Part shown: in pieces, positions 30,301-37,870 of the stretch
Layout of the letters: each line of letters begins with the position of its first letter
Position numbering within the stretch: the stretch's first letter is position 1
Assembly (NCBI GenBank): GCA_045635705.1
Contig: JAZTWE010000021.1
Location: 1-42,079 of the forward strand
Source: Candidatus Enterousia sp.
GTDB taxonomy: Bacteria; Pseudomonadota; Alphaproteobacteria; Rs-D84
Length of the DNA stretch: 42,079 bases
Direction of reading: 5' to 3'
Made by a program: the position numbers and the translations under genes
Notes under the pieces: generated by a model
What the model saw: the letters and a program-made list of their open reading frames with translations, nothing else
Databases searched by the model: none
What the model was told of the DNA's origin: nothing

Positions 30301-31197
30301 TTACATTTTAATCATTTCATCGGCAAAAGAACCTGGTATTGGATTTTTCGCCTGTTGATATGTCGTCTTTTGAAAGAATGCACCACTGGTCACCTGGTCA
30401 AAAGTTTTTTTATCGAACGGTTTGTCATGATACCCCCACCACAATGCATGCGTTGGATCCTGGTCAACATGTGGCATTTTTGCAAAATACTTCTTGGCGC
30501 GTTCATCATTTTCCACCAATGTCTTGAACAGTAACTGGTGCATAAAATAATCAAACGACCCATTTTCATGAATCCAGTAATCCAAAATCATCGCACGCCA
30601 TGCATCCAACAGATACGCCCCCTTGCGCGAACGAATAAAACAATTTTGCATATAACTATACGGACTGCCAACTGTCTGACCCGCCATATAGACAAAGAAA
30701 TCCTGTTCCGCAATCCAGTCTGGAATTGGCGCGGTTGCGAACCCTGTTGAATCCAACCAATACCCACCATGATTATACAGCAATTCCACACGACAAATGT
30801 CAGCAAAGTGCGCATGCCCAATCTTGCCTGCGCGTCGTTTTTCCATAATTATTTCTGGCAATTGAATATAGTCAAACACTGTTTTTTCATCCAGCACAAC
30901 CAGTTCCTGACTGCAATGTTTTCTGATATTACGAAAGCACGCTTTTACCAATGGTGGCGCATTATCTTCACCCTGCAACCACAGTGTAAAAATCTTGTCA
31001 TTTTTATCATTATTTACAACCTTGCGTTCTTTGATTGCCGCCGCCGCAGGCAAATACCGCTTAAAATACCGTGGTATTACCTGGCTGATAACATCACTGC
31101 GCACGGCGCGTCTATGCGCACGGTCGCGCCAAAACCAGTTCAAAATATGTCCACGAATTGCAATATCTGTCATTGCCCACATACGCGAAAAATTCAT
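30301..31197 (-). CDS. Capsular polysaccharide synthesis protein (Caps_synth/GT32-like)
   Basis: IFTLWLQGEDNAP, HFADICRVELLYNHGGYWLDST, DYFMH. Confidence 0.85.
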   Translation of the reverse strand: MNFSRMWAMTDIAIRGHILNWFWRDRAHRRAVRSDVISQVIPRYFKRYLPAAAAIKERKVVNNDKNDKIFTLWLQGEDNAPPLVKACFRNIRKHCSQELVVLDEKTVFDYIQLPEIIMEKRRAGKIGHAHFADICRVELLYNHGGYWLDSTGFATAPIPDWIAEQDFFVYMAGQTVGSPYSYMQNCFIRSRKGAYLLDAWRAMILDYWIHENGSFDYFMHQLLFKTLVENDERAKKYFAKMPHVDQDPTHALWWGYHDKPFDKKTFDQVTSGAFFQKTTYQQAKNPIPGSFADEMIKM

Positions 31198-31233
31198 AAT
31201 AAATCCTTTTTATATTTCCACTATCCGACAAAC

Positions 31234-31266
31234 AATCCCCAGCCACGCAACCGCCAACTGGGGATT
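31234..31266 (-). terminator. Hairpin closing the recA/micro-ORF unit (weak U tract)
   Basis: Minus strand aatccccagt...gctggggatt followed by gtttgt. Confidence 0.6.
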
Positions 31267-31272
31267 AAATCA

Positions 31273-31329
31273 CTACCACTCGTCTGATTCTTTTTTTATT
31301 TTTCGATAAATATATTCTGTTTCACGCAT
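31273..31329 (-). CDS. Micro-ORF 4, MRETEYIYRKIKKESDEW (18 aa)
   Basis: AAAAGGAG + 7 nt + ATG; ends with the tandem stops TAG TGA. Confidence 0.5.
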   Translation of the reverse strand: MRETEYIYRKIKKESDEW

Positions 31330-31346
31330 CAGATTACTCCTTTTGC

Positions 31347-31370
31347 TCAACCTTCGTTATCATTTTTCAT
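31347..31370 (-). CDS. Micro-ORF 3, MKNDNEG (7 aa)
   Basis: AAAAGGT + 7 nt + ATG AAA AAT GAT AAC GAA GGT TGA. Confidence 0.45.
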   Translation of the reverse strand: MKNDNEG

Positions 31371-31386
31371 TGATTTAACCTTTTGC

Positions 31387-31410
31387 TCAGCCATCCATAT
31401 CGTTTTTCAT
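31387..31410 (-). CDS. Micro-ORF 2, MKNDMDG (7 aa)
   Basis: TAAGGAG + 6 nt + ATG AAA AAC GAT ATG GAT GGC TGA. Confidence 0.5.
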   Translation of the reverse strand: MKNDMDG

Positions 31411-31426
31411 GGGCCACTCCTTATTA

Positions 31427-31462
31427 CTAGCCAATAAAATCATCTGAATAAATATTTTTCAT
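31427..31462 (-). CDS. Micro-ORF 1, MKNIYSDDFIG (11 aa)
   Basis: AAAGGAG + 6 nt + ATG, 17 nt after the recA stop; ends TAG TAA TAA. Confidence 0.5.
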   Translation of the reverse strand: MKNIYSDDFIG

Positions 31463-31479
31463 TGTGCTCTCCTTTGGGT

Positions 31480-32559
31480 TTATTCTTCTAAACTCTTCAT
31501 ATCATCCTCATCATCGATTGGGCCGGTTGTCATTTCTTCGGCAATTCCCGATGCGCGCGCCATAATTTTATCCAGCAACGCCTGTTGCGCTTCTGGATGG
31601 TCTTTTAACCACTGACGCGCATTGGCTTCACCCTGGCCCATGCGTTCACTGTTATACGAATAGAAACTGCCCGCCTTTTCAATCAAATCGTACTTCACAC
31701 CCATATCCAAAATTTCACTGATGCGTGAAATACCTTCGCCATACATAATTTTGAAATCAACTGTACGGAACGGTGGGGCAACCTTGTTCTTTACAACCTT
31801 GACCCGGGTTTCATTACCAACAATATTTTCTTTATCTTTAATTTGGCCTGTACGACGAATATCCAGGCGCACCGACGCATAGAATTTCAGCGCATTACCA
31901 CCCGATGTCGTTTCCGGATTACCAAACATAACCCCAATCTTCATACGAATTTGGTTAATAAAGATAAGCAATGTATTACTGCGCGATACTGACCCTGCCA
32001 ATTTCTTTAATGATTGCGACATCAAACGTGCGGTTGTACCAACGAATGAATCACCGATATTACCTTCCAGTTCTGCCTTAGGTACTAATGCCGCGACACT
32101 GTCGATAACAACAACATCAACCGCACCCGATTTGATTAAGGTGTCGGCAATTTCCAATGCCTGTTCCCCAGAATCCGGCTGTGAAATAATCAGATTTGCA
32201 ACATCCACACCCAACTTTTTCGCATAACTTGGGTCCAGCGCATTTTCCGCATCGATATAGGCACATGTGCCACCCTTTTTCTGTGATTCTGCAACCGCGT
32301 GCAACGCCAGCGTTGTTTTACCCGAACTTTCCGGACCATAGATTTCAACGATGCGTCCCTTTGGATAACCACCGATACCCAGTGCAATATCCAGCCCCAA
32401 TGAACCTGATGAAATCGCTTCGATATTTTGCTGGGAACCGTCACCCATTTTCATAATTGCTTCTTTACCGAATTGTTTTTGAATTTGTGCCAGCGCAGAT
32501 TCCAATGCCGGATTTTTTGCCGGTGCGTTTGTATCTTTGGCTGCTTCTTTCTTTGCCAT
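31480..32559 (-). CDS. recA: Recombinase RecA
   Basis: [57 protein letters not shown]. Confidence 0.99.
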
Positions 32560-32585: not shown

Positions 32586-32614
32586 ATCATACAAACAAAA
32601 ACCCTAGAAATCAA
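32586..32614 (-). promoter_or_regulatory. Sigma70-type promoter of recA
   Basis: Minus strand TTGATT-17 nt-TATGAT; no GTTC-N7-GTTC alphaproteobacterial LexA box seen. Confidence 0.55.
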
Positions 32615-33854: not shown

Positions 33855-36800
33855 TCATGTCTCATAAAAAATCCCGCCATTGGCGGGATTATTGTTAATC
33901 ACACTATACGCTTTTATCGACAGTCCAGGCAACATCAACCCATCGCTATTCGGACTGCTGTAATACTTAATCAGACTGGCCGGCAATTGTTTATTCAACA
34001 AATCACGAATTGCGCCAATTTCCTGTGGTAATTTAGAATAATCACCCGATGTCAGTTCAACAAATTCATCTTTGCTGATATCTATGCTCTTAAACGCACG
34101 CCATCCATCTGTATCACCCATCATAAATGGAATTGTCATACCATTCCATTTTACCACAACAACTGCACGGCCCGCCACCAGTGCAACTGGGGAATTATTT
34201 CCATAAACTGTTTCCAGCGACACCAACGACACTGCATTACCCGCAATCGCGCCCAGCGTTCCCGCCGCCACAGCCATCAGATTATTATAATTCATCGCCG
34301 CCTGTTGATTGTTTGTCGCCGACTTATCATCATCTTTGTCCATCGCATTACCAATCAACAACGCACCACCGACAACCGCACCTGCACCAGCAACACCAAT
34401 CGCCGCCGCCGCCAGTCCTGACAACCCTTTCTTTTTTTCTGGCACTGGCAATGCCGTATTGCTTTTACCATATTCTATATTCGTCGTCACAGGAACAGGC
34501 GCAGCACCCTGATTTTTGTCACCACTGGTATCCTCTCGTTTACCCGCGCCATCGTCACCCGGCGGCGTTCCAGCATTATTATCATCATTACCACCACCCG
34601 GCCCTGGGACAACCCCACCACCTGGCGTTGAACCAGGTGTTGCGCCGGTCGTCTGTGCCTGCAACGGAACATCCGCAAGATTTTTAGCACCTGCGCCACC
34701 ACCCATAACTAATCCACCCGCACCTGCGCCCAACCAATTCGGATTCCAAACAGTTGATGTAACTGTTCTCGTGACATTTCTAACAATATTATTTTGTCTA
34801 ATATAATCTTCTATATTACCAATAAACTTTGAACCACTGCTTCTGCCCAGGCCTGTACCTCTATTCGTATACCAGCGTCCACCACCGCGCAAATTAGCAC
34901 TTGGATTCCAACCAATTTCACCCGCCGGCAATTTATCAGCATACTGTTGTGTACTTTGGTTGTACCAACGATTTCCTTGTCGTATCCAACCATTAGTTTT
35001 CAAATCATCCACAACCTGTGCAACATCGTCAATTCTTTCTGTCACAGTTTGGGTACTGCGTACAAACTGTGTCAAACTTGCAACAATTGCAACCAGTCCT
35101 GCAACAAACGCAACCGTATCCGCAGAATTCTTAAATGTCTGCCAACCATTCTTTCCATTTTTTGGGTTCAATGAACATGTTGACAATGTTTTATCTATCG
35201 AACCAACCTCCACACATTCGACCTGATCGCCATTATCATCACACTGACCAACATCCTGAACTGTACAATTATCTACAATTTCTGCAAAGTACGAATCCGG
35301 TGCATTCTGTAATACGCGTGCAATCATTTCATCCAAGCCCGCACGACTTTCAACATCCAAAGAATCCATACCTATCATTTTTTCCAGGTTTTCACGCAAG
35401 AACTTTTCTATTTCTTCTGGCGTACCGGATGCCACAAGCCTGTTCATTTCCAACATATACTTATCTTGATCGTATTCCATTTTAATGTCAGCACCTTCGG
35501 CCAACAAAGTCGCAGTTGCCCCAACTGTTGTTGCCCAAAACACAACAGAACTTCCACCTGATGGCACCGCCAAAACAATCGCAACAGTCGCCCCAGCAAC
35601 AGTTGCCGTAACGCGGGTTGCAGTATTCATACCCTTTGCAAACGCGGCTGCAGGCAATTCACATATTTTTTTATCACTGTTCCATTTTGCCTGTTTACAC
35701 TGTGGACAGTTTGTTATATTAAGCGCGGCAACATCTGAACACTGCTGTTCCGTCAACATACCACAAACTTCACCATCATAAACCCCACCCATTAACTTGC
35801 AATCAATTGCCTGATACCCCGCATTTGATTCATACTTAAAAAGTTCTGATAAATCATCAAACACAAAGTCATGCGCCACACCGTCAATATAGCATGTCAT
35901 AATATCATCACGACTATCGTGACAACCACTGCCCGCATAACGCTTTGGCGTACCATCACACGAAAAACTGTTAACTTTTTTACCCAGTGTTCTTTCAACA
36001 TAAGCCAACACTTGCCTATCCAGCGTATTATTTGCATTTACCTGCTCACCGCTACAGAACGCAAAATTATCCAAACCACTGACTTTATTCAGTTCATTTG
36101 GTCTATAAACAGCCCCAACATCAATTGCACATATTGTTGCCCCACCACTTGGTTGCAAACTAGAACTAAAACCAAAGAACTTTAAAGATTCATTAACCTG
36201 GCTACACTTTGTCGCATCAGCTGTTTTGCAATAATCCGGCCAAGAAAACACATACCCACCACCGGCCGAATGCCCTGATTTTTGAAAATCCAACCCATGA
36301 ATATTTTTACATACCGCCTCTAACAAGTTATTACGAACCTTGCTATCACCCGTTGATGTCACACTATCAAATTTAAATTCATAGAACGCTTTTTTATCAC
36401 CCGACACGCATTGCAAATAATCATCAGATGCAACCAGCATCTTTCGCTGATTTCGTTGAACATCAGAACAAACTATATTTTTATCTTTTGACACATTATA
36501 AACAAACGCCTGGGCCAGTTTTTCGGCTTCACGCTTGCCAACCGATACATTCTTGAAAGTATCTTTATAGCAATATGTTTGAACATCATTGCCATATTTT
36601 TGTTTCAGTTTATTAACCTCGTCCGTATCACACACGGCCCATCCCTGGACACTGGCGCGCGACAACAGGTCCGATACAAACGCCTGGCATTTTGATTTAC
36701 CTGCACTTTGTCGAATATTCCAACCGGCCTTTTCGCAAATCAGCCACATATCCGACCCAATCAGTCCACCACCATTTTGTTCAGCCAGCGCAACCCACGC

Positions 36801-36938
36801 CGTCAAAACATTTGTGCGATGCGCCGCATCAACACGCGATTCAACCACGTTGCGCACTGCGCCTTCGTTAATTTTAATCAGTGCAAAACTGGGGCTAAAC
36901 AAAAACAAAGATAAAATTGCAATCAGGAATTTTTTCAT
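33855..36938 (-). CDS. Large (about 1027 aa) secreted or membrane Cys-rich hypothetical protein
   Basis: Signal peptide MKKFLIAILSLFLFSPSFA; many Cys; internal hydrophobic hairpin; Gly/Pro linker; C-proximal TM helix; ATGA overlap with the upstream gene. Confidence 0.85.
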   Translation of the reverse strand: MKKFLIAILSLFLFSPSFALIKINEGAVRNVVESRVDAAHRTNVLTAWVALAEQNGGGLIGSDMWLICEKAGWNIRQSAGKSKCQAFVSDLLSRASVQGWAVCDTDEVNKLKQKYGNDVQTYCYKDTFKNVSVGKREAEKLAQAFVYNVSKDKNIVCSDVQRNQRKMLVASDDYLQCVSGDKKAFYEFKFDSVTSTGDSKVRNNLLEAVCKNIHGLDFQKSGHSAGGGYVFSWPDYCKTADATKCSQVNESLKFFGFSSSLQPSGGATICAIDVGAVYRPNELNKVSGLDNFAFCSGEQVNANNTLDRQVLAYVERTLGKKVNSFSCDGTPKRYAGSGCHDSRDDIMTCYIDGVAHDFVFDDLSELFKYESNAGYQAIDCKLMGGVYDGEVCGMLTEQQCSDVAALNITNCPQCKQAKWNSDKKICELPAAAFAKGMNTATRVTATVAGATVAIVLAVPSGGSSVVFWATTVGATATLLAEGADIKMEYDQDKYMLEMNRLVASGTPEEIEKFLRENLEKMIGMDSLDVESRAGLDEMIARVLQNAPDSYFAEIVDNCTVQDVGQCDDNGDQVECVEVGSIDKTLSTCSLNPKNGKNGWQTFKNSADTVAFVAGLVAIVASLTQFVRSTQTVTERIDDVAQVVDDLKTNGWIRQGNRWYNQSTQQYADKLPAGEIGWNPSANLRGGGRWYTNRGTGLGRSSGSKFIGNIEDYIRQNNIVRNVTRTVTSTVWNPNWLGAGAGGLVMGGGAGAKNLADVPLQAQTTGATPGSTPGGGVVPGPGGGNDDNNAGTPPGDDGAGKREDTSGDKNQGAAPVPVTTNIEYGKSNTALPVPEKKKGLSGLAAAAIGVAGAGAVVGGALLIGNAMDKDDDKSATNNQQAAMNYNNLMAVAAGTLGAIAGNAVSLVSLETVYGNNSPVALVAGRAVVVVKWNGMTIPFMMGDTDGWRAFKSIDISKDEFVELTSGDYSKLPQEIGAIRDLLNKQLPASLIKYYSSPNSDGLMLPGLSIKAYSVINNNPANGGIFYET
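33866..33890 (-). terminator. Intrinsic terminator-like hairpin inside the last codons of the large ORF
   Basis: aatcccgcc-aat-ggcgggatt followed by tttt on the minus strand, upstream of the in-frame TGA at 33855-33857. Confidence 0.7.
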
Positions 36939-37870
36939 TTTGCCAACTCCTTCTCGCAATTATCTGCAACGGTTGCCGCTTTCTTAATCGCACTAATTTG
37001 TGTCGCATTAAATATTGTGGCCGTCGCCGATGCCGCCGTGGTTCCAATCGACAGAACATTCGCCGCCGTATTCAGGTTCTTTTCCTTTTTCTTGCCCGCA
37101 TCAGTATTATCATCACGGGTCGCATCTGTATTTGCCATTGCACTGGTCACAGTACCGGCCGCCCCCGTCGCAGCACCAACCATTGCCGACACCTGGGCAC
37201 CCTTGGCCCGTTTATCAATCTTGGACAAATCAACAAATTCCCATTCGCCACATGCATCAACAATACGCTGTGCCTGGGACACATCTGTGCCTTCTATGCG
37301 CGCCTGGCCGATTGCATTACGCAATACATTTATTGAATTCTTACACGCATTTATACGCGCATCCAAATCCATATCGATTTTGTTTCCGCCAGCAATAACG
37401 GCACCCGCAACATTGGTCACCGTACTGCCCGCCAGCAACCCCGTACGCCAATTTCCCAATGCCTTAGACTGCTTTTCCAGTTTATCTAGTTCTGTCTTTT
37501 TTGTTTCCAAACTTGAAATCGCATCGTTATACGAAGTATTAAATTCCGCCTGAAACTGTTCCAAATCATCTTCCGTGGGTTCAGTAGTTTTTTCTTGAAT
37601 TTGGCGCAGTTTTTCTAATAATTCTTCCAGTTCTTCGGCTTGTTTATCTTTATCAGTCTTTACAAAACCGGTCACCGTTGCACCGACACCCGCCGCGGTA
37701 CCCACCCCGGTAATTGCAGTATTTATGCCGGCCATTTTCTTTAATTCCGACATACTGTCGCCAATACCACTGCATGCCGAAATCGCGCCAGACATCGCAC
37801 CATAAAAATCAGACGATGCCATTGCACCCCCTGATATCAGCAACGATAAAATAATCAGAATCCCCCGCAT
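36935..37870 (-). CDS. Secreted helical protein with Gly/Ala-zipper segments and a coiled coil
   Basis: Signal peptide; GVGTAAGVGA and GAATGAAG segments; E/K-rich coiled coil; two-fold internal repeat. Confidence 0.85.
   Translation of the reverse strand: MRGILIILSLLISGGAMASSDFYGAMSGAISACSGIGDSMSELKKMAGINTAITGVGTAAGVGATVTGFVKTDKDKQAEELEELLEKLRQIQEKTTEPTEDDLEQFQAEFNTSYNDAISSLETKKTELDKLEKQSKALGNWRTGLLAGSTVTNVAGAVIAGGNKIDMDLDARINACKNSINVLRNAIGQARIEGTDVSQAQRIVDACGEWEFVDLSKIDKRAKGAQVSAMVGAATGAAGTVTSAMANTDATRDDNTDAGKKKEKNLNTAANVLSIGTTAASATATIFNATQISAIKKAATVADNCEKELAK

What the first reader, a model, noticed from the sequence alone, without database searches (positions are those of the whole stretch)
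31273..31475. Array of four SD-led micro-ORFs directly downstream of recA
Seen on the minus strand, filling the space after the recA stop: AAAGGAG-6-MKNIYSDDFIG*, TAAGGAG-6-MKNDMDG*, AAAAGGT-7-MKNDNEG* and AAAAGGAG-7-MRETEYIYRKIKKESDEW*, then a GC-rich hairpin. Each has a well-spaced SD. Three begin MKN and end in Gly with acidic residues between; ORFs 1 and 4 share IY...SD[D/E]; two end in stacked stop codons. Four such units in about 200 nt are unlikely by chance, and all are below gene-caller limits. Inference: a recA-cotranscribed micropeptide cassette. Possible roles: acidic peptides mimicking RecA or SSB tails, signalling or modified-peptide precursors, or minigenes that load ribosomes to stabilise recA mRNA or control read-through into the capsule genes. 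I know of no described equivalent.
Basis: partly seen in the sequence, partly recalled or inferred. Interest (0 to 1): 0.9.

Follow-up and report, generated by a model that had tools for sequence, protein, structure and literature searches.

The report
Conserved micro-genes trailing recA
Right after the DNA-repair gene recA, this small-genome gut bacterium carries four tiny genes of 7 to 18 codons that are kept by natural selection in related species and seem to have grown out of copies of recA's own tail end, so they are probably real, undescribed micropeptides whose job is still unknown.

Summary
On the minus strand, between the recA stop (31480) and a stable hairpin (31234-31266), lie four Shine-Dalgarno-led ORFs: MKNIYSDDFIG, MKNDMDG, MKNDNEG and MRETEYIYRKIKKESDEW.

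- **Not chance.** It is the only chain of 4 such ORFs in the 811-kb assembly, and 0 of 20,000 shuffles reproduce it.
- **Conserved.** The genome is an uncultured alphaproteobacterial MAG (~0.9 Mb). Its relatives occur in animal-gut metagenomes. Of 257 species of the genus, 15 carry the 18-codon ORF, all intact. pN/pS is 0.07 in frame, against 0.84 and 2.8 out of frame.
- **A wider family.** Shorter ORFs ending in DEW (MHRIKKDIDEW, MKPEIDEW, MLPDIDEW, MRDIDEW) and 6-7-codon acidic ORFs (MTDLSEG, MKNDMDG, MRDIEE) recur in the same slot. 30 of 151 surveyed species have one.
- **Likely origin.** The peptides resemble the genus's RecA C-terminus (M-x-x-V-E-E*) and look like duplicated recA 3' ends.
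- **Restricted range.** None was seen in 13 genomes of sister families.

The function is not shown. My best reading is a set of mini-cistrons co-expressed with recA that yield RecA-tail-like peptides acting in trans. The main rival is a cis effect of ribosomes or nascent peptides on the adjacent terminator. The ORFs fail the tests for mccA-type genes and classical leader peptides. No report of recA-linked micro-ORFs turned up in my literature searches.

The parts
31480..32559 (-). recA (359 aa), tail ...[13 protein letters not shown], stop TAA
   Evidence: Pfam RecA 7e-140 and RecA_C 5e-20. Sequence.
32586..32614 (-). Promoter-like site TTGATT-17-TATGAT upstream of recA. This is a consensus match only.
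   Evidence: No promoter-like match on the minus strand between recA and the hairpin.
31427..31475 (-). Micro-ORF 1 with its SD: AAAGGAG, 6 nt, ATG (31462), MKNIYSDDFIG, TAG then TAA
   Evidence: The same peptide, or a variant (MTNIYSDDFIG, MKNIYSDDFTG), occurs in the same slot in 5 other species, and a truncated relative MNMDDFIG in a sixth.
31387..31423 (-). Micro-ORF 2 with its SD: TAAGGAG, 6 nt, ATG (31410), MKNDMDG, TGA
   Evidence: MKNDMDG, MKNDMNG or MKNDIDG occurs in 7 other species, and the terminal Gly uses GGC, GGT and GGG.
31347..31384 (-). Micro-ORF 3 with its SD: AAAAGGT, 7 nt, ATG (31370), MKNDNEG, TGA. It is a second, diverged copy of the ORF-2 unit, differing at 5 of 24 bases.
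   Evidence: The extra copy was seen only in this genome among those surveyed. Tandem Repeats Finder reports nothing because the copies are too diverged.
31273..31344 (-). Micro-ORF 4 with its SD: AAAAGGAG, 7 nt, ATG (31329), MRETEYIYRKIKKESDEW, TAG then TGA
   Evidence: Found and intact in 15 of 257 species of the genus. pN/pS is 0.07 in frame, against 0.84 and 2.84 in the other frames, for 13 of the 15.
31228..31266 (-). Hairpin AATCCCCAGTTGGCGGTTGCGTGGCTGGGGATT plus GTTTGT tail. It looks like a terminator, but the U-tract is weak and it failed the simple terminator scan.
   Evidence: about -20 kcal/mol. A hairpin of -8 kcal/mol or better lies in the recA-to-next-gene gap of 79 of 151 species, with different stem sequences.
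30301..31197 (-). Downstream gene: Caps_synth-family glycosyltransferase with its own SD, first of three glycosyltransferase genes
   Evidence: Pfam PF05704 at 2.7e-62. The next genes are GT2 and GT1. The same gene follows recA across the genus.

Best explanation
The region is a cassette of four separate mini-cistrons at the 3' end of the recA transcription unit.

Shown or directly seen:
- Each ORF has a well-spaced Shine-Dalgarno site.
- The stop-to-start gaps are 16-17 nt.
- The array ends 9 nt before a stable hairpin.
- The ORFs belong to a fast-evolving, genus-restricted family of 6-18-codon genes. Copy number runs from 0 to 4 per species, and the peptide sequences are under purifying selection.

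Inferred:
- The family arose by duplication of the last roughly six codons of recA. Its members resemble the RecA C-terminus of the genus (M-x-x-[VIL]-[DE]-E*). They then diverged into three types: G-ended acidic heptapeptides, the ..DDFIG peptide, and ..[IS]DEW peptides.
- The ORFs are transcribed with recA, and ribosomes that terminate on one cistron start again on the next. The peptides would therefore be made in step with recA mRNA.
- The peptides then act in trans as free acidic, RecA-tail-like ligands on RecA itself or on a protein that reads its tail.
- The DEW type has the pattern of a short amphipathic helix. It carries i/i+4 salt-bridge pairs E5-R9, K10-E14, K12-D16 and K13-E17, and a hydrophobic stripe I7-I11-(S/L15)-W18.
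- The lineage shows no LexA or RecX, so such peptides could be its own means of tuning RecA.
For: - **Anatomy:**
- **Uniqueness and non-randomness:**
- **ORF4 conservation:** a DNA search of all 257 genus genomes found ORF4 plus hairpin in 15. All 15 keep an intact 18-codon frame.
- **ORF4 selection:** across 13 of the 15, pS = 0.41 and pN = 0.03 in frame (ratio 0.07), against 0.84 and 2.84 out of frame. 12 of 19 variable columns are at codon position 3. The codons show synonymous turnover, including CGA to AGA for Arg and all four GAY-GAR combinations before TGG.
- **Other recurrent ORFs in the same slot:** MHRIKK[DE]IDEW in 5 species, MKPEIDEW, MLPDIDEW, MLHDLDEW and MRDIDEW in one each, MTDLSEG in 6, MKND..G in 8 and ..DDF[IT]G in 6. 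In all, 23 of 151 species have a DEW ORF and 30 of 151 have any recurrent class.
- **MTDLSEG:** its copies differ only at synonymous sites, while the flanks are too diverged to align.
- **MRDIEE:** it is encoded with AGA or CGT for Arg and with different stop codons.
- **RecA-tail resemblance:** 146 of 151 RecA proteins end in E, 94 end in EE, and Met lies at -5 to -8 in 57. Micro-ORFs MTEVDE, MTDVEE, MKDIEE and MRDIEE compare with RecA tails MTEVDE and MTEVEE. In L008 the recA end ATGACAGAAGTTGAAGAATAA is followed by ATGACAGATTTATCAGAAGGATAA.
- **Co-transcription:** there is no promoter-like site inside the array. A contig from an RNA library joins the recA end to ORF4 in a relative (weak).
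- **Missing regulators:** the LexA_DNA_bind and RecX families were found in 0 of 1 (own genome) and 0 of 5 near-complete genomes of the clade.
Against: - There is no direct evidence of translation, of a transcript end, or of any binding. The contigs from RNA libraries cannot show a transcript and may contain DNA.
- The class-wise pN/pS values are partly circular, because the rows were picked by peptide pattern. Only the ORF4 test is unbiased.
- The distribution is patchy. A tree of 330 nt of the downstream gene needs at least 8 gains or losses of the DEW ORF. Most species have no such ORF: 121 of 151 show none of the recurrent classes. The function is therefore dispensable.
- Some copies have the Trp codon turned into a stop: MKPDADE-TAG, and ..KKDADE-TGA.
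- Descent from the recA tail does not prove that the peptides mimic it. Peptides of 6-7 residues would be weak ligands.
- A ribosome at the last stop codon would reach the base of the hairpin. The cis model below explains that position equally well.
- RecA tails in the species that have the ORFs show no obvious matching change (labels).
Confidence: 0.45

Rival explanations
1. Cis-acting translation. What matters is ribosome traffic, or a nascent-peptide pause at the stop codons, rather than the released peptides.
- A ribosome terminating 7-10 nt before the hairpin would decide whether the hairpin forms. That would set the ratio of recA-only transcripts to read-through into the glycosyltransferase genes, or stabilise the recA mRNA end.
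- Peptide conservation would then reflect sequence-specific slow termination, as in known arrest peptides.
For: - The last stop codon lies 7-10 nt before the hairpin in the DEW species. The recA stop itself lies 6-9 nt before the hairpin in species without micro-ORFs.
- 55 of 151 species have recA and the next gene less than 30 nt apart, which suggests an operon. 79 of 151 have a hairpin between them.
- What is most conserved is the C-terminal residue plus the stop..DEW*, and ..G* with TGA in 8 of 9 MKND..G ORFs.
- Precedents: ribosome binding to the 7-codon mccA ORF controls the terminator behind it and stabilises the RNA (PMC4231749, abstract read). 7-codon ORFs are translated reiteratively (PMC6495379, abstract and discussion read). 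The 14-aa PepNL peptide arrests at a UGA stop (PMC11890864, abstract read).
Against: - Ribosome loading alone needs no particular peptide, yet whole peptides are conserved: the 18-mer throughout and MTDLSEG.
- No alternative antiterminator pairing appears in the predicted fold.
- The hairpin exists in many species without any micro-ORF, and three DEW species have no clear hairpin (L005, L252, L187).
- Up to four different ORFs in series are hard to explain by a single terminator switch.
Confidence: 0.27
2. Precursors of exported or modified peptides, such as a microcin-C-like or other ribosomal natural product or a signal. The neighbouring MFS transporter would act as exporter.
For: - The heptapeptide length and strong SD followed by a hairpin recall mccA (PMC4231749, PMC6495379).
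- An MFS_1 transporter gene lies directly upstream of recA.
- A patchy, fast-evolving distribution is typical of such traits.
Against: - No peptide ends in Asn.
- None of the six neighbouring gene products shows a modifying-enzyme family in Pfam.
- The only ThiF-family match lies on another contig.
- The peptides have no leader or signal sequence.
- The genome is about 0.9 Mb, and recA, the MFS gene and the glycosyltransferases are ordinary neighbours across the genus whether or not the ORFs are present.
Confidence: 0.08
3. Neutral by-products of slippage or duplication at the purine-rich recA 3' end. They look like genes because acidic codons resemble SD sites. They have no function.
For: - Copy number varies from 0 to 4.
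- Decayed copies exist, in which the Trp codon has become a stop.
- 121 of 151 surveyed species show none of the recurrent classes.
- Duplication of ORF plus hairpin is seen in L008 and L165.
Against: - pN/pS is 0.07 with pS 0.41 for ORF4, and the other two frames are unconstrained.
- 15 of 15 homologues are intact.
- The SD sites are stronger than those of most genes in the genome: 3 of the 11 strong-SD micro-ORFs in the genome are here.
- In genomes this small (median gap 55 nt), 200 nt of useless sequence would be unlikely to persist.
Confidence: 0.08

Closest known systems
mccA, the 7-codon microcin C precursor gene with its ribosome-controlled terminator (PMC4231749; PMC6495379)
   Same: A strongly SD-led ORF of exactly 7 codons followed by an intrinsic-terminator-like hairpin inside an operon. 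Among the smallest conserved genes. A short ORF of this length permits repeated translation.
   Different: The peptides end in Gly, Trp or Glu, not Asn. There is no MccB-type enzyme nearby. The ORFs follow a large housekeeping gene, come in series, and resemble the tail of that gene.
Leader and arrest peptides: trpL and pheL attenuators, TnaC, PepNL (PMC11890864, abstract), and the erm, cat and cmlA leaders. All except PepNL are recalled, not checked in a call.
   Same: Short SD-led ORFs next to a terminator hairpin and upstream of other genes. The conserved C-terminal residues next to the stop codon fit arrest at termination.
   Different: They lie in the 3' region of recA, not in a 5' leader. 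No run of regulatory codons and no predicted antiterminator. The hairpin is present in many species that lack the ORFs.
Protein regulators of RecA: RecX (encoded just downstream of recA in E. coli), and DinI and PsiB (recalled)
   Same: They occupy the position directly behind recA in its transcription unit. The hypothetical target is RecA. DinI acts through an acidic C-terminal helix (recalled).
   Different: They are 6-18 aa against 81-166 aa, with no detectable homology. Action on RecA was not tested. The RecX family was not found in these genomes.
Small C-terminal products made separately from a larger protein, such as RpnS/RpnL 'genes within genes' (PMC10327210; search listing and abstract start only)
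   Same: The concept is the same: a small product that repeats the C-terminal end of a larger protein and may modulate it.
   Different: Here they are separate downstream cistrons made by duplication, not internal starts. They are far shorter, and no inhibition has been shown.
Phage lambda bar minigenes and peptidyl-tRNA drop-off (recalled, not checked)
   Same: Very short, strongly translated ORFs whose expression can tie up particular tRNAs.
   Different: The bar ORFs are 2-3 codons long and not conserved as peptides. Here the peptide sequences are under selection.

Membership tests
mccA-type microcin C precursor | SD-led ORF of about 7 codons | tested here: met
   ORF2 and ORF3 have 7 codons with SD at 6-7 nt. 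ORF1 (11 codons) and ORF4 (18) do not.
mccA-type microcin C precursor | C-terminal Asn, the site of adenylation | tested here: not met
   The peptides end in G, G, G and W. No recurrent class in 151 species ends in N.
mccA-type microcin C precursor | Adjacent MccB (ThiF-like) enzyme gene | tested here: not met
   The six neighbours are RecA, Caps_synth, GT2, GT1, MFS and one with no family. The only ThiF match in the assembly is on contig C5.
Transcription-attenuation leader peptide (trpL type) | Short ORF just upstream of a terminator hairpin | tested here: met
   The ORF4 stop lies 9 nt before a hairpin of about -20 kcal/mol.
Transcription-attenuation leader peptide (trpL type) | Alternative antiterminator pairing that overlaps the ORF | tested here: inconclusive
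   The MFE and centroid folds of 286 nt show the hairpin forming on its own, with no competing helix. No covariation test was done on this point.
Transcription-attenuation leader peptide (trpL type) | Run of codons for the sensed amino acid, and a position in the 5' leader of the regulated operon | tested here: not met
   No repeated regulatory codons. The ORFs lie behind recA. 79 of 151 species have a hairpin in this gap, against 30 of 151 with any recurrent micro-ORF class.
Ribosome arrest peptide acting at a stop codon (TnaC, PepNL) | Sequence-dependent stalling of the terminating ribosome | not testable with these tools
   Only the precondition is seen: conserved residues next to the stop (..DEW*..G*-TGA).
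RecX / DinI-type RecA modulators | Homology to the family | tested here: not met
   No RecX_HTH2 match in the own genome or in 5 genomes of the clade. DinI was not searched.
RecX / DinI-type RecA modulators | Binds and modulates RecA | not testable with these tools
   Complex prediction asks for chains of 30 residues or more, and the peptides have 7-18, so no job was sent.
Separately expressed C-terminal piece of a larger protein (RpnS type) | The small product repeats the C-terminus of the large protein | tested here: inconclusive
   There is resemblance: MTEVDE, MTDVEE and M[RK]DIEE against RecA tails MTEVDE and MTEVEE, plus the L008 nucleotide similarity. The sequences are too short for a statistical test of homology.

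The most novel reading that the evidence does not exclude
A bacterial lineage that has no LexA or RecX has turned duplicated copies of recA's last codons into a family of free peptides of 6-18 residues.
- These would be among the smallest genes known to be under selection.
- They would be made together with RecA and bind RecA, or a reader of its acidic tail, to tune recombination.
- Regulation would thus work by a 'tail in trans'.
- New members would be born and lost repeatedly, as in a conflict with phages or other mobile DNA.
Probability: 0.22. Interest if true: 0.9.

Novelty: new variant of a known kind. Interest (0 to 1): 0.72.

Why it matters
- **Gene size.** Genes of 6-18 codons are invisible to gene callers, and very few are known to be conserved. 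The 7-codon mccA is the textbook case. Here several such ORFs show codon-level signs of selection in an uncultured gut lineage.
- **Gene birth.** The series from the RecA tail through MTEVDE and MRDIEE to MRDIDEW and longer DEW peptides gives an unusually clear picture of new micro-genes arising from the 3' end of a housekeeping gene.
- **RecA control.** If the peptides act on RecA, this would be a new kind of RecA control in organisms without the SOS repressor or RecX. It would also be a natural example of regulation by a free copy of a protein's disordered tail.
- **Alternative payoff.** If they act in cis, they would add a compact case of translation-gated termination behind a major gene.
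- **Testability.** Either way the locus can be tested with synthetic peptides and simple reporters, without culturing the organism.

Tried and rejected
- **Known RNA families.** The Rfam scan of 30500-32500 at E up to 10 gave five matches, all far below their gathering scores (best 21.9 bits against 55). I reject a known RNA family.
- **Other genetic code (TGA as a sense codon).** Long ORFs end in TAA 501, TGA 102 and TAG 82 times, and they stay open under table 11. Rejected.
- **Decayed larger gene.** The four ORFs are in different frames, each with its own SD, and ORF4 is constrained in one frame only. Rejected.
- **Plus-strand ORFs 30769-31287 and 30995-31309.** They are antisense to the Caps_synth gene, which has a strong Pfam match. 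I treat them as shadow ORFs.
- **DNA-level search in 40 relatives.** It matched only the recA end, which at first suggested no conservation. Reading the loci showed conservation at the peptide level instead.
- **Tandem Repeats Finder.** It found nothing. The ORF2 and ORF3 units are too diverged.
- **Degenerate ORF4 pattern in metagenome contigs.** 0 matches. This says little, since that collection may hold few animal-gut samples.
- **Expression.** The public runs hold relatives only (word shares of 0.36 or less). Parts of the array had no cover in three of the four runs laid. This is no evidence for or against.
- **SSB-tail mimicry.** The SSB-like ORF of this genome ends in ..GDDIPF. The DEW peptides share only the pattern 'acidic plus a terminal aromatic'. 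I keep this as a minor variant of the trans model.
- **An EDF-type RecA end that this RecA lacks.** E. coli K-12 RecA ends in ..NEDF. However, 0 of 80 other proteobacterial RecA tails end in F or W, so this is not a general RecA feature.
- **An internal start inside recA making the tail hexapeptide.** Met lies at -5 to -8 in 57 of 151 species, but only 15 of those 57 have an SD-like core upstream. Left as speculation.
- **Literature.**
  - (recA, small ORF, downstream of recA, micropeptide) returned unrelated eukaryotic papers, because 'reca' matched 'recapping'.
  - (RecA, C-terminal tail, small protein, sORF, SOS response) listed 5 of the 8 papers that held the terms. None of those listed describes recA-linked micro-ORFs.
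  - Searches gave the mccA and PepNL papers.
  - My statement that nothing equivalent is in print rests on these four searches only. Supplementary files were not consulted.
- **Tree.** It uses only 330 nt of the neighbouring gene, built with FastTree. 150 of the 151 surveyed loci entered, and one was dropped because the downstream ORF was shorter than 90 aa.
- **Loci left out of the survey.** L125, L182, L207, L209 and L223 gave no readable recA end and were left out of all counts. L001, L108, L109 and L119 duplicate other loci and were also left out.
Full report
**What is there.** Read on the minus strand, recA (32559-31480; Pfam RecA 7e-140) ends in ...[16 protein letters not shown]. Four short ORFs follow it:
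- ORF1, 31462-31427: MKNIYSDDFIG, stops TAG TAA.
- ORF2, 31410-31387: MKNDMDG, stop TGA.
- ORF3, 31370-31347: MKNDNEG, stop TGA.
- ORF4, 31329-31273: MRETEYIYRKIKKESDEW, stops TAG TGA.

Each ORF is preceded by AAGGAG or AAGGT at 6-7 nt, and each is separated from the previous stop by 16-17 nt. Nine bases after ORF4 comes a hairpin of about -20 kcal/mol (31266-31234) with a weak U-tract. It did not pass the simple terminator scan. About 36 nt further on, a Caps_synth-family glycosyltransferase gene starts (31197-30301; 2.7e-62). GT2 and GT1 genes follow it, and an MFS transporter gene lies upstream of recA.

**Is it more than chance?** Yes.
- Across both strands of the 811,571-base assembly there are 126 SD-led ATG ORFs of 5-25 aa. 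There is exactly one chain of four within 220 nt, which is this locus. The only chain of three is a subset of it, and elsewhere the longest chains hold two. Three of the genome's 11 strong-SD micro-ORFs are here.
- None of 20,000 dinucleotide-preserving shuffles of the 210-nt stretch gives four, and 11 give three.
- Only 3 of 685 long ORFs are followed within 45 nt by such an ORF.
- SD is a meaningful signal in this genome. An SD core lies before 38% of the first ATGs of long ORFs, against 4% of random ATGs.
- The code is standard: stops are TAA 501, TGA 102, TAG 82.
- No Rfam family fits.

**Whose genome is it?** The best named RecA relative is an 'uncultured Alphaproteobacteria bacterium' MAG at 93% identity. 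The window's genus has 257 species representatives of about 0.9 Mb, and RecA was found in 256 of the 257. Sequencing runs that hold related sequence come from bovine and other animal gut or faeces. They hold relatives rather than this strain.

**Conservation.** A plain DNA search at first suggested that only the recA end is shared. Reading the loci showed otherwise.
- A DNA query of ORF4 plus the hairpin finds 15 of the 257 genus genomes. All 15 keep an intact 18-codon ORF.
- For 13 of the 15, Nei-Gojobori counts give pS 0.41 and pN 0.03 in frame (ratio 0.07), against ratios of 0.84 and 2.84 in the other two frames. 12 of 19 variable columns are third positions. There are 11 distinct DNA sequences but only 6 distinct peptides. 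The pairs are not independent, but the contrast between frames is clear.
- I surveyed 151 species with a readable recA end. They were drawn mostly from the 150 best RecA matches, so the sample is biased towards closer kin. 23 have an ORF ending in DEW:
  - the 18-mer and its variants;
  - MHRIKK[DE]IDEW;
  - MKPEIDEW, MLPDIDEW, MLHDLDEW and MRDIDEW.
- 30 of the 151 have at least one recurrent class. The other classes are MTDLSEG, MKND..G..DDF[IT]G, M[RK]DI[ED]E, MKNDSED and MKNDSDS.
- MTDLSEG copies differ only at synonymous sites, while their flanks cannot be aligned. MRDIEE is written with AGA or CGT for Arg and with different stops. The terminal Gly of MKND..G uses GGC, GGT and GGG.
- The class-wise pN/pS values are partly circular, since the rows were chosen by peptide pattern. 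I therefore rest the selection claim on ORF4.
- In 13 genomes from five sister families of the order, recA is followed by a plain terminator or by the next gene, with no micro-ORFs.
- The own genome has the longest recA-to-next-gene gap of all surveyed species: 285 nt against a median of 55. It is also the only one with two MKND..G units.

**Origin.** The evidence points to repeated duplication of the recA 3' end, followed by divergence.
- RecA of this genus nearly always ends in Glu: 146 of 151 end in E and 94 in EE. Met lies at -5 to -8 in 57. A typical tail is M-x-x-[VIL]-[DE]-E*.
- Several micro-ORFs are close to such a tail. MTEVDE (L017, L156), MTDVEE (L131), MKDIEE (L167), MRDIEE (L184, L193, L179) and MKDIDE (L147) compare with RecA tails MTEVDE, MTEVEE and MAEVEE.
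- In L008 the recA end ATGACAGAAGTTGAAGAATAA is followed by ATGACAGATTTATCAGAAGGATAA.
- MRDIEE differs from MRDIDEW essentially by the final Trp codon. Elsewhere the Trp codon has become a stop: MKPDADE-TAG in L138, and ..KKDADE-TGA in L008 and L165.
- In L008 and L165 the ORF and its hairpin are duplicated together.
- The sequences are too short for a formal test of homology.
- On a tree of 330 nt of the neighbouring gene, the DEW trait needs at least 8 changes on well-supported branches. Loss, gain or exchange is therefore frequent.

**How it probably works.** Four things are shown: the anatomy, the uniqueness, the conservation and the frame-specific constraint.
- Inferred, co-expression: the array is part of the recA mRNA. 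There is no promoter-like site between recA and the hairpin, and a promoter-like site lies upstream of recA. A contig from an RNA library joins the recA end to ORF4 in a relative that has only ORF4, and another shows a three-ORF form. This is weak, because contigs cannot show a transcript.
- Inferred, translation: the ORFs are translated by reinitiation at strong SD sites.
- For the function I favour free peptides acting in trans, for three reasons:
  - Whole peptide sequences are conserved, not only their length or their ends.
  - At birth, each new ORF would encode a free copy of RecA's own tail. That gives selection something to act on at once.
  - The DEW peptides have the pattern of a short amphipathic helix. 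This follows directly from the sequence: opposite charges at i/i+4 (E5-R9, K10-E14, K12-D16, K13-E17), and I7, I11, S/L15 and W18 on one face. The same pattern holds in MHRIKKDIDEW.
- The LexA and RecX families were not found in the own genome or in five near-complete genomes of the clade. A lineage-specific RecA modulator is therefore plausible, but nothing shows binding.

**The main rival** is a cis effect.
- The last stop sits 7-10 nt before the hairpin. The recA stop sits at about the same distance in species without micro-ORFs. A terminating ribosome would therefore reach the base of the stem.
- recA and the glycosyltransferase gene look like one operon. The gap is under 30 nt in 55 of 151 species, and a hairpin is present in 79 of 151.
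- There are precedents. Ribosome binding to mccA controls the terminator behind it and stabilises the RNA (PMC4231749, abstract). Seven-codon ORFs are translated reiteratively (PMC6495379, abstract and discussion). A 14-aa peptide arrests at a UGA stop (PMC11890864, abstract).
- Against it: ribosome gating alone needs no particular peptide; no antiterminator is predicted; and most hairpins in the genus have no micro-ORF in front of them.

**Two further readings score low.**
- Natural-product precursors: no peptide ends in Asn, no modifying enzyme lies nearby, and the only ThiF match is on another contig.
- Neutral duplication debris: contradicted by the constraint on ORF4.

**Comparison with what is known.** The ORFs work most like mccA-type or leader-type mini-cistrons in form, and perhaps like RecX or DinI in role. 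They fail the defining tests for each family (see the membership table). My four literature searches found no description of micro-ORFs linked to recA or derived from its tail.

**Verdict.**
- The cassette is real, conserved and very likely coding.
- Its derivation from the recA tail is likely.
- Its function is open: about 45% trans-acting RecA-tail-like peptides, 27% cis control of the terminator, and the rest minor alternatives.
- I rate it a new variant of a known kind (bacterial micro-ORFs), with interest 0.72.

Noticed in passing
window 33855-36959 (-): A 1034-aa ORF upstream of the MFS gene and recA has no Pfam match at E <= 0.001. It is a large uncharacterised protein in a genome of about 0.9 Mb.
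   Followed up: no
G000 and G075, G057, G123, G095, G076 (whole genomes): No LexA_DNA_bind and no RecX family match in the own assembly (80% complete) or in five genomes of the clade that are 96-98% complete. The lineage seems to lack the classical SOS repressor.
   Followed up: partly
L008 and L165, downstream of recA: The unit SD + MHRIKKD.. ORF + hairpin is duplicated in tandem. The second copy has Ile changed to Ala and the Trp codon turned into TGA (..KKDADE*). The same ..DADE* ending arose in a different ORF in L138 (MKPDADE-TAG).
   Followed up: partly
L220, gap after recA: A more distant species has two SD-led 10-codon ORFs, MKIVKNDLEG and MKILNGDMEV, in the same slot. They may be further members of the family.
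   Followed up: no
RecA C-termini of 151 species of the genus: The RecA tail is unusually uniform at its very end: 146 of 151 end in Glu and 94 in Glu-Glu. By contrast, 80 other proteobacterial RecA proteins end in E, A, D, G and other residues.
   Followed up: partly
G000 contig C5:13181-13846 (-): The only ThiF-family match in the assembly contains an in-frame TAA. It may be a broken gene or two adjacent ORFs.
   Followed up: no
window 31329-31497, as seen in runs X2 (DNA) and X20 (RNA library): Contigs of a relative replace ORF1-3 with 37 other bases, so recA is followed directly by the SD and ORF4. Another contig in X20 lacks one MKND unit. Natural variants with 1, 3 and 4 ORFs therefore co-exist in animal-gut samples.
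   Followed up: partly
window 30769-31287 (+) and 30995-31309 (+): Long plus-strand ORFs of 172 and 104 aa run antisense to the Caps_synth gene and reach into the hairpin and the ORF4 end. They are most likely shadow ORFs that could mislead a gene caller.
   Followed up: partly
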